Below, piece by piece: positions 1 to 36,959 of a DNA stretch of 64,000 nucleotides (position 1 is its first letter; every line of letters starts with the position of its first letter). The notes under the pieces were generated by a model that saw only the letters and a list, made by a program, of their open reading frames with translations, was not told the DNA's origin and searched no databases. Both the position numbers and the translations under genes were made by a program. Source of the stretch: Cyanophora paradoxa CCMP329 (lineage: Eukaryota; Plantae; Glaucophyta); assembly GCA_004431415.1 (NCBI GenBank), contig QPMI01000494.1, forward strand, positions 496,001 through 560,000. Reading direction: 5' to 3'.

Positions 1-2871
1 ATTGTAAAGGCGTTTTTGGAGTTCGAGAGGAACAAGAACACCAAAGATTCCAGCCAGGATGGAACCCTCACGACTCACACAACCGAAATAGCCGCAATAC
101 AATCGGAGATTAATGCACTGTTTGCAGCAGATGGAGCGCTTGCAATTACCTTAGCCCATATTCTATCGAAAAGGAACATTTACCCCGCGACTGATAACAC
201 ATACCGAGTTGGTTTATCGAATCTGAGATGGTCAGAGGTGCATGGAGTTTCCATGTTTGCCTCCAATTTAATCCTTCCATTAAATCACTCACTCCGACCT
301 AATCAGATTCTTACCAATGGTAATGCACTGATCAGCTACACCGACTATAATAGTAACCTTTCCCGCTCGGTTTCGCAAACTGAGACCTACACTGTCGAGG
401 GATACCCTCAGCAGCTCGCAAATGGGGTCTATGTCGCTTATGTAGGCAAACCTACATATACATTCACTTGGGATCAGTTGGGTGTCACAGGTTTCGAGAC
501 GAATATACCCACTGTTTCATTGGTGGATCACACTACTTATTATAATCCTATCTATAACAATAATGAATCTAATAAAGCATTTATCCAAAATGTCACCTCC
601 ACAGGGTTTCAGGTCTCGTTTGTCATTAACGAGACATACAATTTACTTATCATCCGAAACAACTCATTGAGTTCCGAAGCTACTATTAGTTTCACTCTCA
701 CCATCAATTACATTAGCCCTGTATTCGATAGCAAACCCAGAGTAAAGGTTTACCGAGATTTACAAGGTAGCAATATCGTGCCCTTCTCACAGAATTTCGA
801 TCTTGGGGCGAATTCTTTAAGGTGGAACACAGTTTATACTTTGAGTGCAAACACCTGTAATATTGTGGTCGCAGGATCATCGGCTACTATTGGAGAATTG
901 ACCGCCCCTTTTAGAAAGGAGTTTCTCAAAGAACTGTATATAACAAAGTCTGATTTACCAGATGCTATTTCGTTGGTGCTCTCCCCCACTCCCAGTATAT
1001 CCTACCACAATGTGAAAGACACCAGTAATGTAGTGCAAAGGGGAAGCAAAGTAATCCAGGCATCCGAGATATCAGCAACAACATATAGATACCTTGCAGG
1101 GGTTCCAGCAAACTTCAATTTTACATTTGAGACACCATTTGTCTCCCCTCCTACTATTGAAATAACTGACACGAATTTGTATGTGATCAATAATGGGTCG
1201 ACCACCTCTATTAACAATGCACCAGCCGGCTACTCCCCATTTGTTGCAACTAACATAACAACCACCGGCTTTACACTTGTCGGAAGTGCAACAGTGACAT
1301 ATGCTCTGACAGCATATCCTGTTGGGTTGTATTTTGCGAAATTTAATCTTTCAGCGATCCCACCTGTGTCCCTTTCTCCTCCCTTTACTATCAGTTGGAA
1401 GGCAACAGGAACTATTCCACGATTCGACCCCGAAGATCGCTTGAAAATTAGGTATCCTCTCGATGTGACCGACCTCCATACTACGAGAATAAATGGGCAG
1501 AATTTCGTATTTAATGGAACCAATGCGACTCTGATCAATAACAGTGTCACAAATAATTACTTTTTCGATTCTCGATATATTAATACTTGCAACATTGTCA
1601 TACAGAACACGTTTGAAAATCGCAGTAAGACCTTAACAGTCACCTTGCCCACTCACTCGAATGTCTCAGATGGATTTCACTATTATCTTTTCAATCGTAA
1701 TTACACCTCATATATTCCATATCCTTCTGAGACTGTCAACATGAGCTATCCCAGAGTTACCCTAACATCGACCAATGCTGACTTCTTTGGATCCACGGAC
1801 TTTATGACCTTCTTTGCTTTCACATCCTCTACTGATGGGCTTTTAGTTTATTACACTTTCAGGTATGATGCTGTTTGGACTCAGCTTGACAGCCACCCAA
1901 ATACAGATGTAATCGAAGTGGGCGATAAGAAGTATATTAAAACCGCTTCCCCATGGGTGTGCACTGTCCGGCTCGATGACAGATACACTCCCAACCTAAA
2001 TAACATTGGAATGCACTCGACTTGCAATATTTATGTGCAAGGTGCAATTTCGGCTACCAAATATTTCGAGGGAGGGAACTGTGATGCAGGGCATCGATTG
2101 CTATCGCGAAATGGATTCTTTGAGTCATTCAGTGGGACGGCTCTACCTCCCTTTATTAGGGACACAGTCTATGATACCACATGCAATATTTGGGTGTGTC
2201 GATCTGTGAGCAATCCACCTGTGACACAGGAATTATACAAGTATCTCGCAGATACCTATGGTGCAATCTCAGGATCCTCCACAGGAAATCCAGCGACGGC
2301 TCCCATCGTGTTTGCAAATGCATACACAGCGCCGACATCATTAGCAGGGTCGACAGAGCCGCCACCAAACGATCCCAATCCGAACCAGCCTAACCCAGAT
2401 CCCGATTCAAAAGATCCCCCTACAACTGATCCAGATCCAAACACGACACCTAATAATCCCACAAATCCTACTAATCCAGTCGGAGCACCGGGAACTGATC
2501 CAGGAACGTTAGTGCTTATGATTCTCTTGCCTATTCTTGGTGCTCTTGGGCTTGTGCTTGCATACAAATTCCGAGCTTTGTGTTGTGCATGCATAGACAG
2601 AACCATTGCAGGAGCAGGTAATAAATACTCAACACCAGAGCTTAATGTGACCCAAACAGCCGAAGGAGATGTGGGATTAGAGGTGAGATCAGCCGAGGGG
2701 CATGGTCTTAGTGTTGTGAGAACTGATCAACCACCAGCAAGCAGGGCAGCACCCAAAAAATCACGAGCAGAACGAATGGCTGAATCAATAATGAATGAAA
2801 ATGCAGACTTTATGGCGGAAATTGCACAACGAGAAGGGAGAATATATGAACATGTTCCAAACGTTATGTAA
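1..2871 (+). CDS. Viral fibre-like protein with C-terminal Pro-rich stalk and transmembrane helix (5'-truncated; frame open from base 1)
   Basis: Fibre motifs IYPATDNTYRVGLSNLRW and IVPFSQNFDLGANSLRW; lectin/gp53-like modules (FTFETPFVSPPTI...NITTTGF...ISWKATG); PNPNQPNPDP stalk; hydrophobic LVLMILLPILGALGLVLAY followed by KFRALCCAC. Confidence 0.65.
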   Translation: MVKAFLEFERNKNTKDSSQDGTLTTHTTEIAAIQSEINALFAADGALAITLAHILSKRNIYPATDNTYRVGLSNLRWSEVHGVSMFASNLILPLNHSLRPNQILTNGNALISYTDYNSNLSRSVSQTETYTVEGYPQQLANGVYVAYVGKPTYTFTWDQLGVTGFETNIPTVSLVDHTTYYNPIYNNNESNKAFIQNVTSTGFQVSFVINETYNLLIIRNNSLSSEATISFTLTINYISPVFDSKPRVKVYRDLQGSNIVPFSQNFDLGANSLRWNTVYTLSANTCNIVVAGSSATIGELTAPFRKEFLKELYITKSDLPDAISLVLSPTPSISYHNVKDTSNVVQRGSKVIQASEISATTYRYLAGVPANFNFTFETPFVSPPTIEITDTNLYVINNGSTTSINNAPAGYSPFVATNITTTGFTLVGSATVTYALTAYPVGLYFAKFNLSAIPPVSLSPPFTISWKATGTIPRFDPEDRLKIRYPLDVTDLHTTRINGQNFVFNGTNATLINNSVTNNYFFDSRYINTCNIVIQNTFENRSKTLTVTLPTHSNVSDGFHYYLFNRNYTSYIPYPSETVNMSYPRVTLTSTNADFFGSTDFMTFFAFTSSTDGLLVYYTFRYDAVWTQLDSHPNTDVIEVGDKKYIKTASPWVCTVRLDDRYTPNLNNIGMHSTCNIYVQGAISATKYFEGGNCDAGHRLLSRNGFFESFSGTALPPFIRDTVYDTTCNIWVCRSVSNPPVTQELYKYLADTYGAISGSSTGNPATAPIVFANAYTAPTSLAGSTEPPPNDPNPNQPNPDPDSKDPPTTDPDPNTTPNNPTNPTNPVGAPGTDPGTLVLMILLPILGALGLVLAYKFRALCCACIDRTIAGAGNKYSTPELNVTQTAEGDVGLEVRSAEGHGLSVVRTDQPPASRAAPKKSRAERMAESIMNENADFMAEIAQREGRIYEHVPNVM

Positions 2872-6485: not shown

Positions 6486-6500
6486 AAGAACAATCAAAAG

Positions 6501-12294: not shown

Positions 12295-12356
12295 TTGTTT
12301 TAAATAAGGAACAGAAAAAAGTCGACAGACAAGCCAAGCGCATTCGCGAAGTGAAA

Positions 12357-15374: not shown

Positions 15375-15401
15375 TAAAAAGATAAAGGGGTGTTATTCCA
15401 T

Positions 15402-16655: not shown

Positions 16656-16732
16656 AAAAGTTTTTTGGTGGATATCGCGTGAATATGCCTTAAAAAGATT
16701 GTGATTGTGATTAATAATAAAGTGATATTGTA

Positions 16733-17023: not shown

Positions 17024-17049
17024 TGGTTGGAGGGTCGCAGCTTCTTTTT

Positions 17050-21093: not shown

Positions 21094-21192
21094 TGTGAAA
21101 GTGTCGCTAGAAATAAATTTCGGTTGATCAACGCGATCTTATATCACTTTATATTGATGCTAAAACCTTTAAGACACAGATATAACCTGAAC

Positions 21193-21620
21193 CTAAACTT
21201 GGACTACGTCATCGTTGGGAATAATTAGCGTCTAGCTAGAACCTGAACTCGAGTATGTAATTAGCTTTCGATGATATAGTAATTACGTGTAGCTTAAACC
21301 TTGAAACCTCTTTGTTTTTTAGATTCAAAGTACACACAATTAACGTCTAAATGATGTTGAAGATGATTCTGAGACCGACGCTTTGGGGGTCCGTCTAAAA
21401 GCACTGCTATATCTTTTGCAAGATCGATCGGACTAGACGTTAGATACTACCTAGCGGATGCTGTTTGGTTGGCTTGGAGAGGTGGGGGTGGTAGACGTTG
21501 TGAGAGTGTGTCTGGAAGTGGTGGTTGGGAAGGCGTTGGAGTGGGTGGTTTTGGTGGAATCGGAGGAGTGGGGGTGAGAAAGAGGTGGGTGGGCTGGAAT
21601 CCCCATGATCTCATTTTTTT
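21193..21620 (-). repeat. Right TIR of element 1
   Basis: Inverted copy of 11178-11717; ends ATCTCATTTTTTT, then TSD TCAGC. Confidence 0.9.
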
Positions 21621-23655: not shown

Positions 23656-23992
23656 AGTGGAGTATTACGCCATGGCTACATAAACGAAAAATCCCGAAAT
23701 AATACAAATACATTCGAATTCCCCACGATATTCAGTAATACATACTTTTCATCGATAAATTCAATCGAGATATTCCCACTGACTCACTGATATCATCAAT
23801 CATTTCATTAAACCCCTGACGATATTCAGTAACAAAAACAAAAAACTCACGCCATGGCTACAATTACATCTTTATCATCTTTATCATATTTCATTTCCAT
23901 TTCCCACTTACCTCGATTGCTTTATCGTTTTACTTCTCAGATTATACTTCTTCCTTACAACATTCTTTCGATTCGGCTTGATCCCTTCTTTC
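23656..23992 (+). repeat. Left TIR of element 2
   Basis: Reverse complement of 34171-34507; internal repeats ACGCCATGGCTACA (23667, 23849) and ACGATATTCAGTAA (23725, 23819). Confidence 0.95.
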
Positions 23993-24211
23993 TTCTCGAC
24001 GTTTTTCGGTAGCTTTATGTGCTTCCTCCACTCTTTTCCAATCATCCTTACTTGCTATAACATTGCTGAATCTACAACAAGGGCAGTGATCGAAATTACT
24101 AATCTTATCAATGCAGTCAAAGCACATATGAAATTCGCATTGAGGACATGTGTTATAGTAATCATCCGCAAACGGATCCAGACAAACTTGACATTCCATT
24201 TTTGTTTCCAT
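23942..24211 (-). CDS. Small RING-finger-like protein
   Basis: CQVC...CPQCEFHMCFDC...CPCC Cys/His spacing. Confidence 0.75.
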   Translation of the reverse strand: METKMECQVCLDPFADDYYNTCPQCEFHMCFDCIDKISNFDHCPCCRFSNVIASKDDWKRVEEAHKATEKRREERRDQAESKECCKEEV

Positions 24212-24315: not shown

Positions 24316-25080
24316 CTACATCGTAACCGTAGTGCCCTCGCGCTGTATGCGAGCCAACCGTTCCTTCTTTTGCAGCGCCCGCCTCTTGCCGAACTTCCGA
24401 GTCATCTTTTTCAAGTCGTCTTCTGATAGTATCGCCCGGTCTGTGTAGAACTTGACGTCGTAGCCTTGCAGACCCACGCAGACCACCTGATAACTGTGAC
24501 CCCATAGCCTATTCAATTCCTTAAAGTCTCTCTTACTGAGACCACCATTATATTCATCAAAAGCACAGTTGAACTCTTTTTCGTTCCCTAATATATTGAA
24601 AAAGACCACGAATTCGAGGTTGCGCCTAATTGTAGTGCTAACTGAGCACATGCGTTGTGAATTCACGATGAGGGATATCATATAATGTCTTCCAGAGGTT
24701 ACCAGCTTTTTCAAGACCATATTCGTCTCCATATTTAGCGAGGATCCAATCATGTCATCTAATATCAAAACTAAGCTGTTTCTCTCTCCCTTTTCGATTC
24801 GTTTCTTTTGCATCCCGATGAGCTTAACTACAAGGTCATCGTTCCATTCCTCAAATATGTTATCGGGGTGTGTGATGTCTTGCCATTGACCAGTGAATGC
24901 GGTTGAACTAAAAACCACGACCTGATTGATTTGGTGACGAAGCTCATACAGTAAATATTTCGAGAACGTGGTCTTACCAGTGTTACTACGTCCCCAACAC
25001 CCGATTCTTGTTGGTAAAACTATGTTCCTTGCAGGATCTAACTCAGGTATTTCATCCAGATTTATGCTTTCCTTATCCAT
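24316..25080 (-). CDS. A32-like packaging ATPase
   Basis: GRSNTGKT, LILDD, SGRHY, IRRN; homologous to 14507-15211. Confidence 0.93.
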   Translation of the reverse strand: MDKESINLDEIPELDPARNIVLPTRIGCWGRSNTGKTTFSKYLLYELRHQINQVVVFSSTAFTGQWQDITHPDNIFEEWNDDLVVKLIGMQKKRIEKGERNSLVLILDDMIGSSLNMETNMVLKKLVTSGRHYMISLIVNSQRMCSVSTTIRRNLEFVVFFNILGNEKEFNCAFDEYNGGLSKRDFKELNRLWGHSYQVVCVGLQGYDVKFYTDRAILSEDDLKKMTRKFGKRRALQKKERLARIQREGTTVTM

Positions 25081-25127: not shown

Positions 25128-26350
25128 TTAGAAGTTGCTAACTTTGAGGGTCGACAGTTGATAGCCATTGATTACGAGGACATTGTGGCGAAGTGTGAAG
25201 ATATCCACCACAACCGGGTTCGCATCAGTGCAGCCATTAACTGTGAGGTTCATGTAGCTTGATGACGAGTTGAAAAAGTCTTGATATCCGAGAACCGAGT
25301 TGTGCAGCGAATCCTTGCCGGATTTGCTCAGAACAACACCATAAACGCTTCCCTCAGCGACTCCAACAGCCGCACCACCTGTGCTCGCACCCTTGTAGTG
25401 AGAGGGGATGTGGTTCACAGCAGAAAGGAAGCCTGAGATTGGCTTGTTTGAAATATCGAGGGTGCGATTGTTGTGGTAGATCTCGAAGTTGGTGATGTTG
25501 TAGGTTTCGCCCTTGCCATAGAAGCGAGAGTGGTTAACCGTTTTCAGATCCGCATTCTTTCGGACTGTAAGCAGAACCGAGTGGACGAGCCCGCTCACAT
25601 TAGCAAGCGAGACCTCAGTCGCAGTGTCGGCATCCGCCGTTTTCAGTGGGCGGGTTTGCTTGTGGAGAACCTCAGTAATTGGGATGCGAATGCCACCCTC
25701 TTCGTTTGCCATTTTAAGCAGTCGCTCCGCCTCATCAGAGGAAATGTTAACGAACTGACAAACGAGATGGCAATCGCTCATAGCGATGGTAGCATTTAAA
25801 GCAAGAGTTACAACAGTCGAAGCCCGGAAATCGACCTCAATTTGGGGCATCTCAGCAAGTGCACAGAGGGGGAAGTAAGAGTCGTCCACATTTGCGAGGG
25901 GATCTTAACAATAAACTCGCGAGAAGTGTTATTAAGAACAATAGCGGCATCATCCATGCCATAGGAGGTGGCGAGAGCACCCAGAGTTGAGGGATCGTTG
26001 TCGACGATGGTGTTCACAGTGATCCAGTCACCGGGTAACGTAAGTTTAAAACCGCCATGGACGATTCGGACATTTTCAATGAAGCTACTCGCACAGTTTG
26101 GAAGGGTAGCGTTCGCACCACCACCACCAGTGAGTTTGAAGTAGAGGGAGAGACCGCTGAGTAGCTGTTTGCGTGGGAGGTCAAAGACCGCAGTAGAAGC
26201 AAAGCCAAAGGTGTTGCCACGAGGCTTGACTGTTTCAATGAATGGCTTATATTTCGGGTTGGCGCCAATGACCAGACCGGGGGATAGATATAGTTCGCTC
26301 GAATTGGGGGTGACGAGGAGCTCTTTAAGAGTGGTTCCAGCGAGCGCCAT
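25128..26350 (-). CDS. Major capsid protein, split by a single-base frameshift at ~25886
   Basis: ORFs 25808-26350 and 25128-25889 together align end to end with 13277-14506; adding one G restores SQMW-DDSYFPL (element 1: SQLWDNSYFPL). Confidence 0.8.
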
Positions 26351-26402
26351 TGTTTACTAATCGTGAACAAAATAATTTATACACGGATAGTAACGAACAC
26401 AA

Positions 26403-27298
26403 ATGGGAAAAATACTAATCAATATCGATTCCAGGGATCGCGAAGCTGATTCTACCAGTTCCGCGAATTTCCGCTATAAACTTCCCTATCCGGTGAAGCG
26501 AGTCAAATCTTGCAGAATCACGAATTTTGAGCTATTTAATAATCTATACAACCTCACCACAGATGGAACCATTACCACAGTCACCTACGATAACATCAAT
26601 GCCCAGAAGACCCGGACAAACACCTTCAAAGCCGGAAATTACGACCCCACGAGCCTTGTTAATTACCTTAACGTTCTGATTGGCACACAGCAGTATGCGC
26701 AGAATGGAGGTGGAACCTACACCCGCAAATTCAAAGTGTTCTACGACTCAAACACCATGAAACTAAGGATCCTTTCAAATGAGGCATTCGGTCTCCGGTT
26801 TGCCTCGCTTCCAGTGGCAAACTTTACAGGATTCCAGGTCGCTGACAAACTGTATTTAGGTGCAGTGTTGGCAGTAAACGAAACCTATGATGCACTCGTT
26901 TACACACACGAATTATATTCGGAGGTTCCCTCGACCTTCTGTATTACTCATACATGTTGCTCCACATTGAGCAGCTACGAGGCACTGTGATCAGTCGCAA
27001 CCCATCCGATTGCTATGCAATTGCAAAGATCATTCTCGACCAGCAGGTCGGAGCCCTGTTAAAATACGAGGGTTCCAATGCAACTATGGTGGCATCTGAC
27101 ATGATTGACCGCGAGCTTGAATACCTCGACATCGCACTGAAATACTATAATGGGATTCAGGTCACCTTGCACAGCGATTGGAGCATGACGCTTGAAATCG
27201 TCACTGACGATGGTGGGAACAGAAACAAGAAAGACCTCAAAGCTATATTTGCCGATTTGCAGGATCACCTCCTCCCATTCGATAGGTCATTTTCGTAA
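26403..27298 (+). CDS. Minor capsid protein (penton), split by a frameshift at ~26930
   Basis: INIDSRDRE...NFRYKLP start; adding one C gives VPLDLLYYSYMLLHIEQ, matching IPVDLLYHTYLFLHIDQ in element 1. Confidence 0.8.
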
Positions 27299-27327
27299 AT
27301 TAATATCGCACCCTAAATTAAGAATCA

Positions 27328-28109
27328 ATGCCGCGTCAAGCTACCGCCAAACCACGCAAAACCAAACCGAAAGATTACCTCAGCACGCCGGCAAGTGTGG
27401 CAGACGTGGATACCCCACTAAATTTGGAAGAGGCAAAGCAGACAAAGCCAAAGCTGTGTATCACGTTGGTGATATTGAGCGCGATGTCCACTCTTCGCGA
27501 AACGAGTTCATTCAAGGACAGATCAGTGATCGAAACGATGCGAACGCTTTGATTGATGAAGTCCCGCTGAATAAGATGCCCGGTAACAAGAGAGGACGAA
27601 AGAAGGGAACGATCATAAATTCGACAAAGGAACGAATCGCTTCAAAGAAAGTATTACTGAAAGAGCTCGATATCGGCAACGTGTATTCGGTGCAGACAGG
27701 CGATCGCTACCGCTATTATCTTGCGAAGCCAGGCAAGGGCATATCCAGTCTCACACGAGCCAGTGCGAAAGAATTGGTGGAAGGCATTGCCAAAGAGACG
27801 AAGCTCGAAAACCAAATCATGGAGCAAAAGATCACGAAGGAAAAGGTGGACGAAAAGCCAACTGTGACCGCTGAGGTCTTGACTGATCCAATCGCGCCAG
27901 CCATTAGCGCTACACCTGATCAGTTAATTGCGAAAACGATCGCACTACAAGACACCAACACCGCCACCAATCTCCCGATCGCAAACAAGCACATCCTGAA
28001 AATCGCCGCCTCGACAAGCGAGCCGCTTAACTCCATTCCCCGCGTGTCCCAGCCATTTATTAGCGGATTCGCAAAGCTCGGATTAAAGCCAGGTTACAGG
28101 AGGCTCTGA
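27328..28109 (+). CDS. Conserved basic hypothetical protein (homolog of 11686-12294), probable frameshift at ~27451
   Basis: ATG at 27328 (MPRQATAKPRKTKPK) joins the homologous downstream frame if one A is added to the AAA at 27450-27452. Confidence 0.7.
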
Positions 28110-28910: not shown

Positions 28911-31900
28911 ATGCCTCGCCCTTCCAACCGGTTGATCAGAAAGCTTAATGAAGACACTATTGGTTACACTACTATGAGTCTTGTTCATGGATTGATGACA
29001 ACAGAGCAAGCTAACCTTATTCTCAATGCGATAGCCAGGCGAATTACGTTAAAAACGGCAAAAGATTGGAATGACACAGCAAAGGGAATTTACGAGAATA
29101 ACCTTACAAAGCGCGAGGTGGGGGATGAGTTCCAAAGATTGGGTGCTATCGACGTTCCCCAGGAACTAACAGACCAGCGCCCGCAACGCAACACCAAGAC
29201 ACATATTAGCCGGTTCCAGAAGCTGATGAAAAATCTAAAAGAGAAAATCGAGAATTTAGAGGGCGACACTGTGACTATGTATTTTCGTATGTATCGGTTG
29301 ATTGTGACAAAAGCCCCCAAAAACGTAAGGGTTGTGGAAGAATGGGGTGACAGATACTACCAAGTTCTCAAAGACAGAAAAGACGGTTCATTCCATTCGG
29401 TTAAATTGAAGAAAGACCTTTTCATAAAATCCCTCGATCTTGTGAACAGACCATTTACCAATGTCCCATGTTTCGAAAAAAAAGCAATCAAACAATTCAT
29501 TTTCGAAAACATGCAGTTTGGTAATAGAAACCCAGACTTAATCTATTTGAAAAACGTTCACACAGGCACATACAGTGATGTCCTGACAATCGAGAAGATA
29601 AGACCCGAGAACGATAATGAGTTTATCCCCAGGATCGACCAGATCTTACGAGACTATCAAGCGCCTATGATCCCATCTAAGTATCTTACTTACGAATTTG
29701 ATGTTAACTCAAAGTCATTCAGTGATTTCTTTGATAAAACGAAGAACAAGGAATTGAGAATTAAATCATGTGTGCATGATGCTATCATTGCTGTGTTTGC
29801 ACCAGCGTTTGAAAAAGCCAAAGATTATGGGCGCTACGTTTCTATCAAGCTGAATCATGCCTTCTTGTTCAAATTGGTGCATGGTCGGGATCCAGTTGAT
29901 GGGGACGATATGGGATTATCATTACGACAAATTACCGATGCATTTCTGAAGCCATACAAGCTTTCTATGATAGTAGTAGACGAGAATGATAAAGTGGACT
30001 ATGCCCTATCCTATATTCCTGTGGATGCAAACGGAAAGAGAACGAGGAACAAATTCCTCCGACCATCCACCATGTATGTAAAAGTGCAAAATGGACACAT
30101 GTATTTGCTCAATAATAATGTTGAGAGCCTCATCCAATCTTTCAATGGATCTAAGCCTACTGAAAAAGATATGCCGTTGGGTTGTAGATACAGGCTAAGA
30201 AGAAACGATAACAACAGTGGTAGTTTTTTCGCAGCCAATGAGGATCATATTGTAGGTATTCTCCAATCAGATGAGGCAACAAAAAAGAACCTTATCCGCA
30301 TCAATTACGGTGGTGCAGGTGGTCTCACTAAATTGTATGCTTCCTTCCTGACAGTGCATAATTACATAGCTGATGCCAGAATTTCGGTTCTCGGATCCAT
30401 CCAAAGCATAAGGTTCAAGTATCAGAACAAGGATGTCATCATTATACCTGTGTGCCCAGAAGTCGAAGTTGAGACAGCTTACCACTTGCAGTTCGAGAAC
30501 TCAGAGCAGCGGGATGCATTCACCAAATATAATAACATGTTCTACGAAGCATTAATTAACAGATCCTTGAAGAGTTCCTACAACGAAAACACACGAAATG
30601 CTTTCGTGGTTGGTTCTCAGAGTGCCTTAAATGGTCGCTTTGAAGATTCCGCCGAAATCATTAAGGATTTGAATGATGGGTGCCTTAAAGTGTTCGAACA
30701 CGATGGGTGCAAAGCGTATGCAGGTCATGTTAATTCATTTGAGTATTTCCCGGTATTTAGCGAATTCGATGACTTTAAGGATGTGTCCATACAATCAGTT
30801 GCCGATGTGGAACCTTACAGCTTCTACTACGTGACTTTGAAGAAAGGACAATACCTTATTAAGAAGGACTCTAGTGGAAAGGAGTGGGTGCAATATAGAT
30901 ATCCCAAAGCAAAGCGAATTCTCATAGATTCACCATGTAACCTGATCCCAGGGATCATGCTCAAAGAATACTTCGATGACCTGATAGACATAATCGATGT
31001 AAAATACATCTTAAAACCATATCGAATTGTCAAGAACGTTGTTAAATATGTTATCAAACAGATCTTAGAGAGCAACCTTAGCGAAACTGAGAAGAAGCAG
31101 ATTCTTGTAAGTATTATTGGAATGCTCGGGAAACAAAAGAATCAGAGATCGCGAACCAAACCGTTTTTCCTAAAATCGGATGCTATCGAGTTTGCCAGAA
31201 AGCATGGTGGCGACGTCAAATTACTGTGGCTCGGTGAGAAGAAGCCCAAGCAATCCACAGAAGCCAAAACCGAATCTCAAATCAAAGTCTCAAACTATGA
31301 AAAATGGATTCAAGCTTATGAAGAACGAAAACAAAAGAAAAATCAGGTTAAACCCGAAATTGAAGAAGAACATGCAATTGAAGATTACGAAAACCCCGAT
31401 CGCATTGTTGCAGCTGAGGAGATAACAGACCCACACATTTGGTATGTGGAGAAAATAGAAGAAAGGCTACTAAAAGATGGATTCCTTCCGATCCAAAATA
31501 TGGTCTATTCAAAACAACGAATGGATCTGTATAAGAAGTGCAGGGAATCAAAGGGTGTCATTATGGCTCTTAAAGTTGATGCAGTCTATGAGGCAATCGA
31601 CGAAAGCTTAGATGTAGAAGAAGTTAAATTCGATCGCACGAAGTATGAGAATATCGGACGTTTCAGCACGAAACCTATATCTTTCAATGAGTATTGCAAT
31701 AAGATCTTACAGAAGAAGCACGAGACTAAGAGGACAAATGGAATGATCCGATTTTTCAAGCCGGAGAGACTGAGGGATTTCGTTACTGTGAGAAAGAATG
31801 ATTGCACAGCATACACGGTTCCCGATGAATTTGACACGAAAGCGATATGTGATATGATGCTCTCCAAAGGGAAAGGCATAAGAATTGAGGGAAATGCCCC

Positions 31901-33191
31901 AGGAACCGGAAAGTCGTATGTGAGCAAGGCGATCGGTGCCAAATTCGACAGTTGCTTATATATCACGCCCACTAACAAGCGTGTCAAAGAAATGAAAGTC
32001 GAAGATGGTTTGGAGAATGTGATGACCATTCATGGTGCGTTCAATCTGAAAATCGATGATTCCCAAATGGACGATGTTGTGGGTGCGAATGCAAGCAAGA
32101 TTGCACCTTATCAATGCATTGTTATGGATGAAGGCTACCAGCTTAGCATACCACAGCTTGCAGCACTGAAACACATGATGAAAGTCGCCTACCCTGACAA
32201 GACCTACATTCTGAATGGTGACCCGTTGCAAAATCCACCTATTCAGTTCCTTAGTGTGGATCAGAAGGAATATTATAACGAGATCTTTGAGCAGCTCTTC
32301 CCGAGCTTGTTAGAGTTGCATGTGAATAAGCGCCACATTTTGCCAGAAGATCGCGAAAAGATTCTCGAATGGAAGCAAGATTTATTCGAAAAGAACATGG
32401 ACATATCCGCATTCCTTGCAAAGCATAACATACCTGTTATTTCGCCTGATCAGTTGCGACCTGACGATAGAGCTATTACTTACACAAACCGCAAAGCAGC
32501 ACAGGTTAATGCTATGATCCACCGCATTAAGTATGGTATAGATACGCCAACTCATTTTAAAGGGCTCGAAATTATAGCAAAGCAGCGCCTGACGAAAGGG
32601 AAGACGGCAGATGACGAGAGTGTAATCATCCATAATGGATTCTCGTATATCATCGAGGATCTGAACGAAACCACGCTTACGATTTCAGACTACGCAGATG
32701 AAAGCATTAAAATAACGCTTCCATACGATTCAATCAAGCATTTCACGCTTCCCTATGCTAATACGTGTCACGTTGTGCAAGGTGACACGGTAAAAAATAA
32801 GCGGGTGGTTGTTTTCGAGGCGCAATCGCCCCACGTCACCAAATATTGGTTGTGGGTCGCACTGACCAGGACACCATATTTGAAGGACACCGTGATTTGT
32901 GTGGATGAAAGCGAGATCTATGATATGGGCGCTTTCAAATCAAGAATGCATAGACTGATTCAAGGTTATAAACATCAAGACAAGGTTGCAGGTCGCGATT
33001 TCGTCGAATCTATGTATGTTACTTATCCATGGATAAAGCAAAGATTCGGAATTCAGAATGGGCTTTGTTGGCGATGCTACCAAATTATGGGTTACGATGA
33101 GGTCTCGGTTGACCGCGAAAACAATGCGGTCGCTCATGTTATCGGTAATATTTCCCTCTCTCATATTAAGTGTAACTGTGCGGCTCAGTGA
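28911..33191 (+). CDS. Multidomain replicase: vOTU-like + derived PolB-like palm + SF1 helicase + HNH-like domain
   Basis: SF1 motifs GNAPGTGKS, IVMDE, GDPLQNPPI, NKRH, TCHVVQGDT, WVALTR (strong). PolB-like HDGCKAY / KQILVSIIG / LKVDAV in A-B-C order (moderate). SCVHDA...NGHMY vOTU-like; C-terminal CWRC...SVDRENNAVAH...N...CN. Confidence 0.8.
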   Translation: MPRPSNRLIRKLNEDTIGYTTMSLVHGLMTTEQANLILNAIARRITLKTAKDWNDTAKGIYENNLTKREVGDEFQRLGAIDVPQELTDQRPQRNTKTHISRFQKLMKNLKEKIENLEGDTVTMYFRMYRLIVTKAPKNVRVVEEWGDRYYQVLKDRKDGSFHSVKLKKDLFIKSLDLVNRPFTNVPCFEKKAIKQFIFENMQFGNRNPDLIYLKNVHTGTYSDVLTIEKIRPENDNEFIPRIDQILRDYQAPMIPSKYLTYEFDVNSKSFSDFFDKTKNKELRIKSCVHDAIIAVFAPAFEKAKDYGRYVSIKLNHAFLFKLVHGRDPVDGDDMGLSLRQITDAFLKPYKLSMIVVDENDKVDYALSYIPVDANGKRTRNKFLRPSTMYVKVQNGHMYLLNNNVESLIQSFNGSKPTEKDMPLGCRYRLRRNDNNSGSFFAANEDHIVGILQSDEATKKNLIRINYGGAGGLTKLYASFLTVHNYIADARISVLGSIQSIRFKYQNKDVIIIPVCPEVEVETAYHLQFENSEQRDAFTKYNNMFYEALINRSLKSSYNENTRNAFVVGSQSALNGRFEDSAEIIKDLNDGCLKVFEHDGCKAYAGHVNSFEYFPVFSEFDDFKDVSIQSVADVEPYSFYYVTLKKGQYLIKKDSSGKEWVQYRYPKAKRILIDSPCNLIPGIMLKEYFDDLIDIIDVKYILKPYRIVKNVVKYVIKQILESNLSETEKKQILVSIIGMLGKQKNQRSRTKPFFLKSDAIEFARKHGGDVKLLWLGEKKPKQSTEAKTESQIKVSNYEKWIQAYEERKQKKNQVKPEIEEEHAIEDYENPDRIVAAEEITDPHIWYVEKIEERLLKDGFLPIQNMVYSKQRMDLYKKCRESKGVIMALKVDAVYEAIDESLDVEEVKFDRTKYENIGRFSTKPISFNEYCNKILQKKHETKRTNGMIRFFKPERLRDFVTVRKNDCTAYTVPDEFDTKAICDMMLSKGKGIRIEGNAPGTGKSYVSKAIGAKFDSCLYITPTNKRVKEMKVEDGLENVMTIHGAFNLKIDDSQMDDVVGANASKIAPYQCIVMDEGYQLSIPQLAALKHMMKVAYPDKTYILNGDPLQNPPIQFLSVDQKEYYNEIFEQLFPSLLELHVNKRHILPEDREKILEWKQDLFEKNMDISAFLAKHNIPVISPDQLRPDDRAITYTNRKAAQVNAMIHRIKYGIDTPTHFKGLEIIAKQRLTKGKTADDESVIIHNGFSYIIEDLNETTLTISDYADESIKITLPYDSIKHFTLPYANTCHVVQGDTVKNKRVVVFEAQSPHVTKYWLWVALTRTPYLKDTVICVDESEIYDMGAFKSRMHRLIQGYKHQDKVAGRDFVESMYVTYPWIKQRFGIQNGLCWRCYQIMGYDEVSVDRENNAVAHVIGNISLSHIKCNCAAQ

Positions 33192-34255
33192 TGGATACAG
33201 TGTTATCATACAAGAAATACAGGCAGAAACTAATTAATGAAGGTGTAAGTTTTGACGAGGCGAAACTAAAAAAACAGTTCGAGAACTCGGAACTACAACA
33301 GATTTTCAAGAAACCAAAAAGACCAAAGAGCTTTTTACGCATTGTAGCGAGACCCCGATCATTTCAAGTAGACATTATGTTTTTTAGAGGATTTCAAACA
33401 GCGAATAGAGGCATTGGTAAGGCGCTTAGTTTCATTGAGATTTTGAGCAGGAGAGCATTCGTTTATCCTTTCAAAGAGTCTTCCGAAATTCAGGGCATTT
33501 TAGATAGGTTTAAGCAGGATGCCGGGAAAGTTGTAGGATTGGCGGGAGATAATGAGTTTTCACAGAGAGTTTATCGTGAATGGTGCAGCGCAAATGGTGT
33601 GGAACTCTACACAGATGTAGCAAAAGACGACCACATTTCGGTAGGCAACAAGTTAGGTATCATAGATAGATTTACGAGGACTTTTAAGCAGTATCTGAGA
33701 AAGGCAATGATTGCAAAGGGAAGCTCGAAATGGCTCGATTTAGTAAAGGAAGTTTTAGACACATACAACAGTTCCCCACATTCCTCTTTGAAAAACGACA
33801 CACCAAACAATGTATATAATAGTGACCACAAGCAGCTATATATTTACTTGCGGGATTCAGTGCATAACGACCAAGTGAAAGATACTGAACAAGTTGATGT
33901 GAAACAAGGCGACACTGTTCGGGTGTTGGAGCCCAAAGGGATATTTGATAAAGAAGGTGCAAGGTTTAGCAAGAAAGTATATACAATTGGTGCAAAAGAT
34001 AACAATAGGTTCAAAGTATTAGAAAATATGGATGGAGAAGTAAAGGAAGTTAAGAGACGTTTTAAAAAGAACGAGTTACAGAAAGTGAGTAAGGCTGATG
34101 TTATTAAGATTCCTGATCAAAAGAGGATTATAAGAGTTGCGAAAACGAATGAAGTAAATCGCAAATTAGCGAAAGAAGGGATCAAGCCGAATCGAAAGAA
34201 TGTTGTAAGGAAGAAGTATAATCTGAGAAGTAAAACGATAAAGCAATCGAGGTAA
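33191..34255 (+). CDS. Retroviral-like (rve) integrase
   Basis: FQVDIMF, LAGDNEF, GIIDRFTRTFK and YNSSPHSSL; shares TDVAKDDHISxGNKLGIIDRF with the element-1 integrase. Confidence 0.92.
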   Translation: MDTVLSYKKYRQKLINEGVSFDEAKLKKQFENSELQQIFKKPKRPKSFLRIVARPRSFQVDIMFFRGFQTANRGIGKALSFIEILSRRAFVYPFKESSEIQGILDRFKQDAGKVVGLAGDNEFSQRVYREWCSANGVELYTDVAKDDHISVGNKLGIIDRFTRTFKQYLRKAMIAKGSSKWLDLVKEVLDTYNSSPHSSLKNDTPNNVYNSDHKQLYIYLRDSVHNDQVKDTEQVDVKQGDTVRVLEPKGIFDKEGARFSKKVYTIGAKDNNRFKVLENMDGEVKEVKRRFKKNELQKVSKADVIKIPDQKRIIRVAKTNEVNRKLAKEGIKPNRKNVVRKKYNLRSKTIKQSR

Positions 34256-34507
34256 GTGGGAAATGGAAATGAAATATGATAAAGATGATAAAGATGTAAT
34301 TGTAGCCATGGCGTGAGTTTTTTGTTTTTGTTACTGAATATCGTCAGGGGTTTAATGAAATGATTGATGATATCAGTGAGTCAGTGGGAATATCTCGATT
34401 GAATTTATCGATGAAAAGTATGTATTACTGAATATCGTGGGGAATTCGAATGTATTTGTATTATTTCGGGATTTTTCGTTTATGTAGCCATGGCGTAATA
34501 CTCCACT
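34171..34507 (-). repeat. Right TIR of element 2
   Basis: Inverted copy of 23656-23992. Confidence 0.95.
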
Positions 34508-34536
34508 TCCAGCGGCGGATACGGGGCCCGGGGCGT

Positions 34537-34729
34537 GTACGGCGGCGGATTTGGGGGCGGGTACGGCGACGAATTCGGGGGTGGGTACGGCGGCGGATTC
34601 GGGGGTGAGCACGGCGGCGGATTCGGGGGTGGGTACGGCGGCGGATTCGGGGTGGGTACGGCGGCGGATTCGGGGTGGGCACGGCGGCGGATTCGGGGTG
34701 GGTACGGCGGCGGATTCGGGGTGGGTACG
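34537..34729 (+). repeat. Host minisatellite, 8 x 23-24 bp (GTACGGCGGCGGATTCGGGGGTGG)
   Basis: Directly visible tandem copies beside the element-2 insertion site. Confidence 0.9.
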
Positions 34730-36959
34730 TAAACGGCTCCCACGAAGATGACTTCGAATTCGAATTCGGCATGAGCCGCGGTGCGCACGGCCCTCCGTGT
34801 CCCCCCGCCCCCGCCCCCCCCCTTTCCCCCCCTCCCACCCCCCCCCCCCGAGGATCTGAACGAGCTGCTGAGCCAGGGGGTAAAGCCCTGGGACGAGGAC
34901 GCCCACGCCGTCCTCGCCGTCCTCGCTGTCCTCCTCGCCGGCGACGTCAACGTCGACGTCTATATCTACTACTAGCTACCTATATATATAGCTATATTTC
35001 TAGGCGCCGGCCTCCGGATCCAGGTTTCTAGGCCTAGCTATAGCTAGTAGGTTTGCTCTCGACCTTAGGCCCCGTGGGGGTACGCGGCACTGGCAGCGCT
35101 AGCTATATAGCTATAGCGCTAGCTAGCTATATAGGGCGCGGTTCATTGCATGTGTTTCGGGCTCCCCTCAAACATTCATGATATATAATTGCTGTACAAC
35201 TGCGGAAGACCAGTACTCAAAGAGAAAGGGTGCGCTAACTAAGTAAATCAAATGCATCGTGGTTCTCGAATGCACGCATCGTGTAAACAATGCAAGTAAA
35301 TATATATCGGAAGCTGAAGAATGAAGTTTGCGCTTGGGCGGGCCATTAATATTGCTACTACAGGAGCGCGAAAGAGAGCCAGTCCTCGCCCTCGTCTGCG
35401 GAGGGGCCCGGGGCCGGGTCCCACTCGGCGGCGTCGCCGTTGAGCCCGCCGAAGGGCGCCGCTGCCGCAGCCGCCGGCAGGCGGCACGAGCCGACGGACT
35501 CGTCGAAATCGACGCCGCTCGGACCCGAACCCGGGTCGCCCCCAAGGGCAGACCCGATCGCTGAGACGGACGCCTCGTCCTCTTCGTCGTCGCTCACGCG
35601 CTGCGTCAACGCGTTGTGAGAGACCAAAGTGGAAGTGAAAGATCAAGATCAAGAGCGCACGTCCGTTTCGTCGTCGACGTAGAAAACGGGGCGCCGAGGA
35701 GCGATCTCGAAGGAGGGCGCGGAGTCCGCGGGGGCCGCCTGCGCAGCGTCCTGCCGCCCGCCCGCCCCCCCGGCACACTCAGACGGCGTTCCGGAGAGTG
35801 CTTCAGATCCCTTCTCACTGCCGCCGCCGCTGACCTCGTGCTCGGGATCGACGGCGAAGACTTCGCCATGGAAGACGCCGCCGCTGTCCCGGAGCTCCGC
35901 GTCCTGCGCAGAGGCACGAACAGCGCGCGGTCATGATCGGCGGGGCGCACGCCGCGGGCGAGCGGGTCCGCCTGGCCGGGCGGGGCTCGAGAGATCGCGC
36001 TCACCGCATCGGAAGGGTCGACGAAGACGACGTCGCGCCTGACGAGGCCGATCTCCTCGTCGCTCTCCGCGTAGTGCGCCGCGTACGCGCCGACGTCCTG
36101 CGAGGGCGAGAGCGCGCGTGCGCGTCGGGGGCCGAGAATCGGATTGCAGGCCCTGCAACTGGAATGCAGACCTCGGCGTCTGAGTCGGGTTCCACGAAGA
36201 CGACCTTGCGCCGGACGACCCCGTCGTCGTCCACAACCTGTGCGCGAGGGCCTCATGATCAAATTGGGATGTCGCGAGCTCGAGAAGCGCTGGATTTTCG
36301 CGCGAGCGTAACGCGAACCTCGAAGCTGGCTGTGCGCAGGACGGGCGGTCCCCGCAGCTGAAAGCTGCGCTCCGCGAGCAAGTCGATACCGAGGGCAATG
36401 GATCCGGAGGAGATCATATCGCCGAGGTTCGGGCTGGCCATGGGGGAAAGCTGAAAGCTAGCTAGCCAGAGAGAGTGCTGGTCCACTGCTGGAGCTGACG
36501 CGCGTGTGTCAGAGTCGACTGCGGGACAGCTGCTGCCCCGCCCGCCCGCTGGCACGGAACCAGTTTTCGAAGAAGGCTGCGCTGGCGCGTCTCTCCGATG
36601 GCAACATGTTCGTGACGGGACGCTCCCGAAATGAATCTATGGGTCCCAATGCGGAAGAACACCGTGGCACCACATTTGCCCGCCTTCGCGGAGCTCACGC
36701 GTGGCGCCGCCGCCGGTATCACAGCGCGAGCTGCAGAGCACGGGTTGTGCATGCTGCTGGGTTGCCGCGCGGCGCCTGCGGGGCCGAACACGTTTTGCGC
36801 GTGTACCCATTCGATCCCCATTCGATCGGCCTCGCCGCTGTACCCCACGGTCGAAGCGCGGCGAAGAAGGCCGACCACAGCAGGGCTCCGGGTGGTTCAG
36901 AGAGGAGCGGCACAACACGCCCGTAGTGATTTTGGCCACGCCCGGCTCTCGCTGCGCCG

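What the first reader, a model, noticed from the sequence alone, without database searches (positions are those of the whole stretch)
28911..33191. 1426-aa replicase fusing vOTU-like protease, non-canonical PolB palm, SF1 helicase and HNH-like domain
Seen in order: Cys (29769) and His (30096) in a context like the vOTU domain of the element-1 pPolB; DGCKAY (30702), KQILVSIIG (~31095) and LKVDAV (~31572) in PolB motif A/B/C order; a full SF1 helicase motif set from 31889; and a C-terminal CxxC..SVDR..N..H..N..CN. No exonuclease motifs are recognisable, and NSxYG and DTD are altered. Inference: a proofreading-less protein-primed polymerase with its own helicase and nuclease. PolB-helicase fusions may already be known in some PLVs, so the novelty of this four-part architecture needs checking.
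Basis: partly seen in the sequence, partly recalled or inferred. Interest (0 to 1): 0.82.

Follow-up and report, generated by a model that had tools for sequence, protein, structure and literature searches.

The report
Known polinton-like virus polymerase-helicase fusion
This 1426-residue gene is the all-in-one replication protein of a small virus-like jumping element (protease, proofreading-less DNA polymerase, helicase and nuclease folds in one chain); the design was already described in 2016 and 2024, so it is a new member of a known family and would likely copy the element's DNA as those papers predict.

Summary
C287, H396, D598, K729 and D890 are invariant, or 59 of 60 for the Cys, across 60 aligned relatives that share only about 23% identity.

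Structure prediction and fold searches support all four parts:
- an OTU-type cysteine protease fold, aa ~252-405;
- a phi29-type protein-primed PolB palm and fingers, aa ~530-935, with no exonuclease motifs and the first Asp of DTD lost;
- a Pif1/RecD-like SF1B helicase, aa ~975-1325;
- a C-terminal HNH (His-Me finger) fold.

The architecture is not new, though. It is the published "Tlr1-like helicase", or pPolB-S1H fusion, of polinton-like viruses, Tlr1 elements and transpovirons (PMC5499653, 2016; PMC11161782, 2024).

The gene sits in a 10,852-bp element with perfect 337-bp terminal inverted repeats, a 6-bp target duplication, an rve-type integrase and an A32 ATPase. The element's capsid genes are each split into two frames.

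Its capsid module is 59-65% identical to that of a neighbouring element that carries a canonical pPolB instead.

Verdict: a new member of a known kind, of low interest.

The parts
28911..33191 (+). Whole ORF, 1426 aa (P0001): pPolB-S1H ('Tlr1-like helicase') replication protein
28911..29660 (+). N-terminal ~250 aa with no detectable relatives. It occupies the position of the variable and terminal-protein-like domains of the published family. Its fold was not tested.
   Evidence: Most matches begin at query aa 200 or later. Pfam gave nothing. The Atlas score of 0.75 is chance level.
29664..30140 (+). vOTU-like cysteine protease fold, aa ~252-410. The catalytic candidates are C287 (29769-29771) and H396 (30096-30098).
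   Evidence: VIA Z is 4.3-5.9 to 25 or more OTU entries over model residues 13..166. C287 opens helix 48-66 of the model and H396 opens strand 157-160. Cys is present in 59/60 rows and His in 60/60.
30210..30500 (+). Small alpha/beta domain, aa ~434-530, between the protease and the palm, in the position of the exonuclease domain. It has no conserved acidic residues.
   Evidence: The phi29 alignments start at model residue 195-197 and chain residue 4-6. No invariant D/E was found. Homology to the exonuclease domain is not shown.
30501..31715 (+). Protein-primed PolB palm, fingers and TPR-like region, aa ~531-935
   Evidence: Foldseek PDB: all 9 of 9 hits at E<=0.001 are phi29 DNAP, best 3.5e-8. 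VIA gives Z 14.9 with 360-377 residues aligned. In BFVD, 27 hits at E<=0.001 are almost all pPolBs.
30702..30725 (+). Motif A, D598-GCKAYAG. The family consensus is DxxKAYTS; compare the PolB motif DxxSLYPS, which I recalled.
   Evidence: D598 in 60/60 rows, Y603 in 58/60
31095..31133 (+). Motif B, K729-QILVSIIGMLGK741. The family consensus is KKxIxNxxIGxxGK. This copy has Val where 52/60 rows have Asn.
   Evidence: The hhalign register is K729-K, V733-N and G737-G of the pPolB motif KxxxNxxYG.
31251..31424 (+). Lys/Glu-rich insertion predicted to be disordered, aa ~781-838, between motifs B and C
   Evidence: pLDDT is below 50 at model residues 542-554 and 573-599
31569..31583 (+). Motif C, L887-KVDA. 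D890 aligns with the second Asp of DTD. The first Asp is K here and non-Asp in 59/60 rows.
31833..32885 (+). SF1B (Pif1/Dda/RecD-like) helicase, aa ~975-1325, with Walker A G998-x-G1000-K1001, D1073-E1074, Q1107, R1141, Q1290-G1291 and R1320
   Evidence: Pfam AAA_19, E 1.8e-8. The family profile against PDB gives Pif1 at 7.7e-18, Dda at 6.9e-15 and RecD2 at 2.6e-13.
32925..33188 (+). C-terminal HNH / His-Me finger fold, aa ~1339-1426. The zinc ligands would be C1386, C1389, H1418 and C1421. Arg1402 stands where the canonical general-base His would be.
   Evidence: AF2 pLDDT 91.0. Foldseek top hits are the Gme HNH nickase (prob 1.00, E 0.011) and T4 endonuclease VII (prob 0.97). VIA wide gives PacI at Z 6.5.
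33188..34255 (+). rve-type integrase. Its start overlaps the stop codon of the replicase.
   Evidence: Pfam rve_3 at E 1.5e-4, which is below the curated cut-off. It is 29% identical to the element-1 ORF 15402-16778.
23656..23992 (.). Left terminal inverted repeat, 337 nt. The 6-bp target duplication lies at 23650-23655.
34171..34507 (.). Right terminal inverted repeat, 100% complementary to the left one. The 6-bp target duplication lies at 34508-34513.
24316..25080 (-). A32-type packaging ATPase of the same element
   Evidence: Pfam Pox_A32, E 2e-10
25128..26350 (-). Putative major capsid gene, split into two frames (25808-26350 and 25128-25889)
   Evidence: The two halves are 59% and 65% identical to one 409-aa ORF of element 1. 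There is no Pfam or PHROG hit.
26403..27298 (+). Putative minor capsid (penton) gene, split into two frames
   Evidence: The two halves are 45% and 32% identical to one 291-aa ORF of element 1.

Best explanation
The ORF is the replication protein of a 10,852-bp integrated polinton-like element and shows the domain layout of the published pPolB-S1H ('Tlr1-like helicase') family; it is predicted, not shown, to copy the element's linear DNA by protein-primed, proofreading-less synthesis helped by its own helicase.

**Shown here:**
- four folds in the order OTU protease, phi29-type PolB palm/fingers, SF1B helicase, HNH;
- invariant Cys/His, motif A Asp, motif B Lys/Gly and motif C Asp across 60 distant relatives;
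- no exonuclease motifs;
- an element with perfect inverted ends, a 6-bp target duplication, an integrase and a packaging ATPase.

**Inferred, following PMC11161782:**
- The N-terminal ~250 aa would act as the priming (terminal) protein.
- The OTU protease would cut it from the polymerase.
- D598 and D890 would bind the catalytic metals.
- The 5'-3' helicase would open the duplex in place of the lost exonuclease domain.
- The HNH domain would nick or cut DNA, using a loop His (H1409) instead of the usual His.
- The integrase would insert the copy, making the 6-bp duplication.
For: **Family.**
- 96 relatives at E<=1e-3, best 3.2e-31, mostly 1200-1400 aa.
- 34 of the 38 scanned carry SF1-helicase Pfam families in the C-terminal half. 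None has a credible Pfam family for the first ~800 aa.

**Polymerase.**
- The AF2 model of aa 240-960 has pLDDT 85.5 and pTM 0.81.
- All 9 PDB matches at E<=0.001 are phi29 DNA polymerase.
- VIA gives Z 14.9 with 360-377 residues aligned. RNA-primed archaeal PolBs reach only Z 8.2-8.3 with 165-179 aligned.
- BFVD matches: an unnamed 999-aa protein (1e-16), the mavirus pPolB (1.3e-8), then bidnavirus, phi29-like, tectivirus, adenovirus and adintovirus PolBs.
- Motifs are in PolB register. The spacing from motif A to motif B is 131 aa.

**Protease.** 25 or more OTU structures match at Z 4.3-5.9 over aa 252-405, among them 7mic, the same vOTU used in the 2024 paper.

**Helicase.**

**Nuclease.**

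**Element.** Terminal repeats, target duplication, ATPase and integrase.

**Literature.**
- PMC5499653, sections 6, 8 and 9 read.
- PMC11161782, abstract and passages read.
- PMC12721341, abstract and section 15 read.
Against: **Sequence-level links to polymerases are weak.**
- The family profile found no polymerase or OTU chain in PDB at E<=10.
- hhalign against a pPolB profile gave only E 0.09, probability 0.6.
- Pfam and PHROGs see neither the polymerase nor the protease nor the HNH.

**Fold scores have limits.**
- OTU Z-scores (<=5.9) and HNH Z-scores (<=6.5, tied with two non-nuclease chains) are in the range the tool calls middling.
- TM-scores to phi29 are low (0.27-0.38).

**The active site departs from canonical PolB.**
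- The first Asp of motif C is Lys.
- The motif B Asn is Val in this copy.
- The motif B Tyr is Ile.
- No KxY motif was identified.

The 2016 paper read such changes as inactivation.

**Other gaps.**
- No named family member was recovered by sequence.
- I could not superpose coordinates to measure the distance between the two Asp residues.
- The capsid genes of this copy are frame-split.
- No run on record as RNA holds the gene.
Confidence: 0.9

Rival explanations
1. The polymerase-like domain is catalytically dead and only structural. The protein would then work as a helicase-nuclease, and another polymerase, from the host or a helper virus, would copy the element. This is the reading of the 2016 paper.
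For: - The first Asp of DTD is lost in 59/60 rows.
- This copy has Val for the motif B Asn.
- The motif B Tyr is Ile or Val in most rows.
- There are no exonuclease motifs.
- PMC5499653 section 8 reports that motif 4 is missing and argues for inactivation.
Against: - D598, K729, G737 and D890 are invariant in 60/60 rows at ~23% overall identity, which fits selection on an active site.
- PMC11161782 (passage read) states that mavirus, pipolin and other PolBs lacking the same Asp are active, and withdraws the 2016 inference.
Confidence: 0.22
2. This particular copy is a decaying relic. The replicase ORF is open only because the insertion is recent, and it does nothing in the present genome.
For: - The major and minor capsid genes are each split into two frames.
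- Most of the 20 runs that hold the stretch are listed as likely DNA.
- The two runs guessed to be RNA cover the replicase only thinly, at depth 1-17.
Against: - The 337-nt terminal repeats are 100% identical and the 6-bp duplication is intact.
- The 1426-aa and 354-aa ORFs are open.
- Contigs of two public runs differ from the window by one base in length near both capsid break points. They agree without gaps over three long replicase pieces. So the breaks may be assembly errors or private to this copy.
Confidence: 0.3
3. The central region is not a PolB at all but another palm-type enzyme, such as a reverse transcriptase, an RdRp or a primase-polymerase, that mimics the motifs by chance.
For: Sequence profiles alone do not reach significance against PolB.
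Against: - Every significant structural match in two libraries is a family B polymerase, and almost all are protein-primed.
- RT and RdRp entries appear only at E>0.05.
- Three motifs fall in the PolB order and register.
Confidence: 0.02

Closest known systems
pPolB-S1H fusion proteins ('Tlr1-like helicases') of polinton-like viruses, Tetrahymena Tlr1 elements and transpovirons (Krupovic, Yutin, Koonin 2016, PMC5499653; PNAS 2024, PMC11161782)
   Same: - Same order of parts: variable N-terminus, vOTU with Cys and His, exonuclease-less pPolB palm with motifs A and B kept and the first Asp of motif C lost, SF1 helicase, C-terminal HNH.
- Length is just above the 1000-1400 aa range given for the family.
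- Carried with an A32 ATPase and capsid genes.
- As in Tlr1, an RVE integrase accompanies it.
   Different: - No sequence match to a named member was obtained here; the relatives found are unnamed metagenome proteins at 22-40% identity.
- This copy has Val at the motif B Asn and His at one zinc-ligand Cys of the HNH.
- The element is small, at 10.85 kb.
Mavirus-type pPolB (TP-vOTU-palm, most of the exonuclease lost, helicase encoded separately)
   Same: - Second-best viral structural match, E 1.3e-8.
- According to PMC11161782 it also lacks the first Asp of DTD and most of the exonuclease domain.
   Different: Mavirus has no fused helicase or HNH. Its helicase is a separate SF3 gene, as stated in PMC11161782.
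phi29 DNA polymerase (PDB 2pyj, 2py5, 2ex3)
   Same: - Best solved-structure match, Z 14.9, over palm, fingers and the TPR-bearing regions.
- The motif A-to-B spacing here is 131 aa; I recall about 134 in phi29.
   Different: - phi29 has an active exonuclease domain, DTD and KxY motifs and a separate terminal protein.
- It has no protease, helicase or HNH.
OmPLV Helicase SF1-pPolB of Oxyrrhis marina (PMC12721341)
   Same: One chain joining an SF1 helicase and a pPolB in an endogenous polinton-like virus.
   Different: - Opposite order, with the helicase N-terminal.
- A full exonuclease domain is kept.
- Its authors infer an independent origin (section 15 read).
PacI-like His-Me finger nucleases (group 20 of PMC5714182)
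   Same: - Top VIA match of the C-terminal domain: Z 6.5, 82 residues aligned.
- The only nuclease touched by the sequence profile, at E 2.8.
- Both lack the canonical general-base His, and both have two zinc-binding pairs.
   Different: - PacI uses a loop Tyr (passage read). This family keeps a loop His (H1409, 47 of 50 rows that have the column) and an Arg at the His position.
- Membership is not established.

Membership tests
pPolB-S1H / Tlr1-like helicase | SF1 helicase domain in the C-terminal half of a 1000-1400-aa protein | tested here: met
   - Pfam AAA_19, E 1.8e-8, at aa 996-1110.
- The family profile hits Pif1, Dda and RecD at E 7.7e-18 to 9.6e-12.
- At 1426 aa the protein is just above the stated range.
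pPolB-S1H / Tlr1-like helicase | pPolB-type palm upstream of the helicase, with motifs A and B kept and the first Asp of motif C replaced | tested here: met
   - Fold.
- Motifs and counts: (D598, K729, G737 and D890 in 60/60 rows; first motif C position non-Asp in 59/60).
pPolB-S1H / Tlr1-like helicase | TPR1 and TPR2 subdomains, the mark of the protein-primed kind | tested here: inconclusive
   - phi29 aligns over 360-377 residues at Z 14.9. RNA-primed PolBs align over 165-179 residues at Z about 8.
- The motif spacing fits.
- No residue-level superposition was available to me.
pPolB-S1H / Tlr1-like helicase | Exonuclease domain or motifs absent | tested here: met
   - No position in aa 405-595 is D/E in more than 78% of 60 rows.
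- Only a ~100-aa alpha/beta domain occupies the place.
pPolB-S1H / Tlr1-like helicase | vOTU domain with conserved Cys and His next to the palm | tested here: met
   - OTU structures match at Z 4.3-5.9 over aa 252-405. These Z values are middling, but 25 or more entries cover the same range.
- Cys in 59/60 rows and His in 60/60.
- The Cys sits at a helix start and the His at a strand start.
pPolB-S1H / Tlr1-like helicase | Terminal-protein-like middle domain and variable N-terminal domain | not tested
- Only the lack of conservation of aa 1-200 was seen.
- Pfam and the Atlas gave nothing.
pPolB-S1H / Tlr1-like helicase | C-terminal homing-type nuclease (HNH or GIY-YIG) | tested here: met
   - HNH fold.
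- 51 of 60 rows carry the first CxxC.
- One relative, P0039, has GIY-YIG instead.
pPolB-S1H / Tlr1-like helicase | Sequence relationship to a named member (Tlr1, transpoviron or a named PLV) | not testable with these tools
   - No named member appeared among the hits.
- The best BFVD match, H6WBE3, has no name in the tables at hand.
pPolB-S1H / Tlr1-like helicase | Carried by an element with a DJR capsid module and an A32 ATPase | tested here: inconclusive
   - The A32 ATPase is met.
- The capsid genes are inferred only from position and from 32-65% identity to single ORFs of the neighbouring element. No capsid family hit or fold test was made.
Canonical protein-primed PolB (Pfam DNA_pol_B_2; phi29 or Polinton type) | Exo I-III motifs, DTD in motif C, and the Pfam model matched | tested here: not met
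   - No exonuclease motifs.
- KVD stands in place of DTD.
- No PF03175 hit.
- BLASTP against the neighbouring canonical pPolB gives E 8.6.
HNH / His-Me finger nucleases | beta-beta-alpha fold with zinc-binding pairs | tested here: met
   - Strands at aa 1398-1402 and 1414-1418 and a helix at 1419-1425.
- HNH nucleases dominate both searches.
- CxxC...(C/H)xxC is present.
HNH / His-Me finger nucleases | General-base His at the end of the first strand | tested here: not met
   - The position is Arg1402: R in 47 of the 51 rows that have the column, and His in none.
- So this is an HNH fold with a non-canonical active site, as in PacI (PMC5714182, passage read).

The most novel reading that the evidence does not exclude
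The C-terminal HNH-fold domain may be an anciently fixed working part of the replicase, not a passenger homing endonuclease added by invasion as the literature suggests. It would have a family-specific active site: Arg in place of the usual His, plus a conserved loop His. It could, for instance, nick at the inverted ends to free or prime integrated copies.

The side-by-side sibling elements in this window share a capsid module at 59-65% identity, yet one has a canonical pPolB and the other pPolB-S1H. They give a natural pair in which a replicase swap, and the activity of the exonuclease-less polymerase, can be tested directly.
Probability: 0.3. Interest if true: 0.45.

Novelty: new member of a known kind. 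Interest (0 to 1): 0.2.

Why it matters
It matters little as a discovery, because the fusion was described in 2016 and its protease and likely activity were worked out in 2024. Three modest points remain:
- This is a complete, compact member (10.85 kb) that still has an RVE integrase, perfect ends and a 6-bp target duplication. That combination was noted as exceptional for Tlr1.
- It lies about 2 kb from a sibling element with a canonical pPolB and a closely related capsid module. That makes a convenient natural pair for asking how replication modules are exchanged, and whether the exonuclease-less polymerase works.
- The HNH domain of the whole family lacks the canonical catalytic His. The papers I read do not mention this.

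Tried and rejected
**Searches that found nothing useful**
- phmmer of P0001 against PDB: one hit, E 0.45, a kinase, discarded.
- PHROGs: none.
- Word-seeded search at near length: none.
- The same search with the family profile: 4 unnamed hits.
- Viral contigs with P0001 and with P0003: no relative. With alignment A1 the tool found no stretch conserved enough to search with.
- No whole genome is held for this window.
- No earlier notes near this place or by sequence.
- Cluster look-up of 10 relatives: one name only, 'AAA family ATPase' of a bacterial MAG, probably a mis-binned contig.
- Atlas search of aa 1-250: score 0.75, chance level.
- Pfam on the last 106 aa and the first 250 aa at E<=10: nothing, apart from one hit at E 0.061.

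**Weak comparisons**
- BLASTP of P0001 against the neighbouring pPolB: best E 8.6.
- hhalign of the family against that pPolB alone and against its 25-row profile: E 0.09 in both. I used these only for motif register.

**Expression**
- No RNA holder is listed.
- Two runs guessed to be RNA cover parts of the replicase and integrase at low depth. I take this as no evidence either way.

**Rejected idea**
- I first considered a PolA-like 'TV-Pol' or an AEP primase for the N-terminal part. I dropped both after the fold searches.

**Limits**
- Supplementary figures of both key papers (motif alignments, vOTU alignments) were not opened. They may list residues that bear on the HNH and motif 4 points.

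Full report
**The observation**

The window holds one uninterrupted ORF at 28911..33191 on the + strand, 1426 aa.
- C287 at 29769 and H396 at 30096;
- D598 of DGCKAY at 30702;
- K729 of KQILVSIIG at 31095;
- D890 of LKVDAV at 31578;
- the C-terminal CxxC..SVDR..N..H..N..CN.

**Setting**

The G+C content is 41-47% from about 24 to 34 kb and 57-72% beyond 34 kb. The ORF lies inside an element bounded by 337-nt inverted repeats that are 100% complementary: 23656-23992 and 34171-34507. The same six bases flank the element on both sides. The element is therefore 10,852 bp long and carries the target duplication expected of an integrase-made insertion.

It also encodes:
- an A32-type packaging ATPase at 24316-25080 (-) (Pfam E 2e-10);
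- an rve-type integrase whose start overlaps the replicase stop, at 33188-34255 (rve_3, E 1.5e-4, below Pfam's cut-off).

The flank carries pieces of a WD40 gene at 60.6-63.2 kb, which fits a eukaryotic host. No tRNA gene is present.

**Relatives**

Direct library searches see only the helicase:
- Pfam AAA_19, E 1.8e-8, at aa 996-1110;
- nothing in PHROGs;
- nothing usable in PDB by phmmer;
- nothing by the word-seeded search.

An exhaustive HMMER search with aa 1-960 found 96 cluster representatives at E<=1e-3. Of these, 35 are at <=1e-10, and the best is 3.2e-31. They share 22-40% identity over the matched parts and most are 1200-1400 aa long. The shared core is query aa ~245-775.

I scanned 38 of the 96 against Pfam. 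Thirty-four carry SF1-helicase families in their C-terminal half, one (P0039) also has a C-terminal GIY-YIG, and none has a credible family over the first ~800 aa.

I aligned P0001 with 59 of the 96 (alignment A1). Before any counting I dropped 37 hits:
- the ten fragments or short forms among the first 69 hits (P0028, P0032, P0035, P0036, P0043, P0057, P0058, P0061, P0065, P0069);
- all hits from P0071 on.

**Conservation**

Counts in A1:

| Residue or site | Rows |
|---|---|
| H396, D598, D620, K729, G737, D890, G916 | 60 of 60 |
| C287 | 59 of 60 (the other row lacks the stretch) |
| Y603 | 58 of 60 |
| K741 | 56 of 60 |

Mean identity to P0001 is 19-25%.

The family consensus reads as follows (the PolB motif forms given for comparison are recalled, not from a call):
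- motif A, DxxKAYTS, with some rows reading DFNKFYPSLL; compare PolB DxxSLYPS;
- motif B, KKxIxNxxIGxxGK; compare PolB KxxxNSxYG;
- motif C, (K/N/R)TD(C/A/S); compare PolB DTDS.

The first Asp of motif C is absent in 59 of 60 rows. This copy has two private departures: Val for the motif B Asn (Asn in 52 of 60 rows) and Val for the motif C Thr. No position between aa 405 and 595 is acidic in more than 78% of rows, so exonuclease motifs are absent.

**Folds**

*Model.* AlphaFold2 on aa 240-960 with a 60-row alignment gave pLDDT 85.5 and pTM 0.81. The last ~35 residues of that alignment were misplaced against the helicase, and they came out disordered.

*Polymerase.*
- Foldseek against PDB gave 9 matches at E<=0.001, all phi29 DNA polymerase (3.5e-8 to 8.7e-6, TM 0.27-0.38).
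- VIA-align gave phi29 at Z 14.4-14.9 with 358-377 residues aligned (model 195..721 against chain 4..556). Archaeal RNA-primed PolBs reach Z 8.2-8.3 with 165-179 aligned, and Pol epsilon about Z 6.
- Against predicted viral structures there are 27 matches at E<=0.001. The best is an unnamed 999-aa protein, H6WBE3 (1e-16). Next come the mavirus polymerase (1.3e-8) and bidnavirus, phi29-like, tectivirus, adenovirus and adintovirus PolBs.

*Motif geometry.* In the model, D598 ends a strand, K729 lies in a long helix, and D890 sits at the turn between two strands. This is the usual arrangement of motifs A, B and C.

*Profile comparison.* Profile-profile comparison with the neighbouring canonical pPolB and 24 of its relatives is weak (E 0.09). 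It does put K729, V733 and G737 on K, N and G of KxxxNxxYG, and D890 on the second Asp of DTD.

*Protease.* Model residues 13-166 (aa 252-405) match 25 or more OTU structures at Z 4.3-5.9. Among them are Otu2, OTUD3, Ceg23, and the maize rayado fino virus, turnip yellow mosaic virus and nairovirus proteases. C287 is the first residue of a helix and H396 the first of a strand, as in papain-like enzymes. These Z values alone are middling. The weight comes from the number of OTU entries over one range and from the two invariant residues.

*Helicase.* The family profile hits Bacteroides Pif1 (7.7e-18), Dda (6.9e-15), RecD2 (2.6e-13) and RecD (9.6e-12). This is the SF1B group, so the helicase probably moves 5'-3' (inference).

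*Nuclease.*
- AlphaFold2 on aa 1325-1426 gave pLDDT 91.0.
- Foldseek found no match at E<=0.001. Its list is led by the Gme HNH nickase (E 0.011, prob 1.00) and T4 endonuclease VII (prob 0.97), followed by Cas9 HNH domains, PacI, McrA and Cap5.
- The wide VIA search put PacI first (Z 6.5, 82 aligned, rmsd 3.2). It is tied with two non-nuclease chains (Z 6.5 and 6.3). HNH domains fill more than half of the next 25 rows.

The position of the canonical general-base His is Arg1402: Arg in 47 of the 51 rows that have the column, and His in none. H1409 in the loop, N1413 and N1422 are conserved. PacI-like nucleases also lack that His and use a loop residue instead (PMC5714182, passages read).

**What it is**

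The layout is the one published for 'Tlr1-like helicases'.
- The 2016 paper found the pDNAP motifs, the lack of the exonuclease domain and the C-terminal HNH or GIY-YIG. It read the polymerase as inactivated and left the N-terminal ~450 aa unexplained (PMC5499653, sections 6, 8 and 9 read).
- The 2024 paper modelled the proteins, found the vOTU with conserved Cys and His and a TP-like middle domain, and noted that active polymerases such as that of mavirus lack the same Asp. It renamed the proteins pPolB-S1H fusions and predicted them to be active (PMC11161782, abstract and passages read).
- A 2025 paper on Oxyrrhis describes the reverse order, with a full exonuclease, as the novel case. It cites the polymerase-then-helicase, exonuclease-less form as the known one (PMC12721341, abstract and section 15 read).

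Earlier notes of this scan on other genomes reached the same family. They are not independent evidence.

**How it most likely works**

The folds, the invariant residues and the element's ends are shown. The following steps are inferred, after the 2024 paper:
- The N-terminal part primes synthesis and stays bound to the 5' end.
- The OTU protease releases it.
- The palm copies the linear genome without proofreading.
- The helicase opens the duplex.
- The integrase inserts the copy.

The role of the HNH domain is open. Pairwise identities of the HNH block correlate with those of the helicase block among the 49 rows that carry it (Spearman 0.29; 0 of 999 permutations reach this). The correlation is weaker than between the other domains (0.56-0.60). 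That suggests largely vertical inheritance with the rest of the protein, not repeated invasion. The test is noisy, though, for an 80-residue block.

**State of this copy**

The neighbouring element, at about 11178-21619, has imperfect inverted repeats. It carries a canonical 1347-aa pPolB with an endonuclease VII insert and shares its other genes with this element.

| Gene in this element | Identity to the neighbouring element |
|---|---|
| Putative major capsid gene, two halves | 59% and 65%, to one 409-aa ORF |
| Putative minor capsid gene, two halves | 45% and 32%, to one 291-aa ORF |
| ATPase | 39% |
| Integrase | 29% |
| ORF 27192-28109 | 38%, to ORF 11686-12294 |

The two replicases do not align (best E 8.6). 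So two related elements with different replication genes sit about 2 kb apart, and in this one both capsid genes are split between two frames.

Eighteen public runs of one organism, most likely DNA, hold about 0.88 of the sampled words. Contigs of two of them differ from the window by one base in length near both break points. They agree without gaps over three long pieces of the replicase. The breaks may therefore be assembly errors or private to this copy. No run on record as RNA holds the gene.

**Verdict**

The novelty is low: this is a new, compact, integrase-bearing member of a described family.

Noticed in passing
window 11178-21619: A second ~10.4-kb element with imperfect inverted repeats (85-96%). 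It carries a canonical 1347-aa pPolB with an endonuclease VII insert, an A32 ATPase, an integrase-like ORF, and capsid ORFs 32-65% identical to those of the element studied. The two sibling elements have different replicases and lie about 2 kb apart.
   Followed up: partly
window 25128-27298: The putative major and minor capsid genes of the studied element are each split into two overlapping frames. Contigs from two public runs differ from the window by one base in length near both breaks, so the breaks may be assembly errors or private to this copy.
   Followed up: partly
window 32925-33188 (aa 1339-1426): Across the family, the HNH-fold domain has Arg where the general-base His should be (47 of 51 rows) and a conserved His in the loop. 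Its best structural match is PacI, a nuclease that also lacks that His.
   Followed up: partly
window 1-7532: A third low-G+C block holds three large ORFs (956 aa open at the window edge, 1178 aa, 343 aa). They have a weak H-type lectin hit, a C1q domain (E 7e-14) and many 36-nt (12-aa) repeats. These may be fibre-like proteins of another viral element.
   Followed up: no
window 34530-34740 and 23391-23702: The element is inserted in a G+C-rich 23-24-nt tandem repeat. Repeat-derived Pro/Arg-rich ORFs run into both ends of the element.
   Followed up: no
window 23942-24211 (-): An 89-aa Cys-rich ORF with several CxxC pairs, RING- or zinc-finger-like by eye, lies partly inside the left terminal repeat. 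It has no Pfam hit.
   Followed up: no
window 31251-31424 (aa 781-838): A Lys/Glu-rich, low-confidence insertion of about 58 aa lies between polymerase motifs B and C. Most relatives lack it.
   Followed up: no
protein P0008: A 1575-aa relative is labelled 'AAA family ATPase' of a bacterial MAG (Castellaniella sp.). More likely it comes from a polinton-like virus contig binned with a bacterium.
   Followed up: no
window 60621-63154 (-): Three adjacent ORFs with strong WD40 hits (E 1e-36 to 1e-40) look like exons of one host gene.
   Followed up: no
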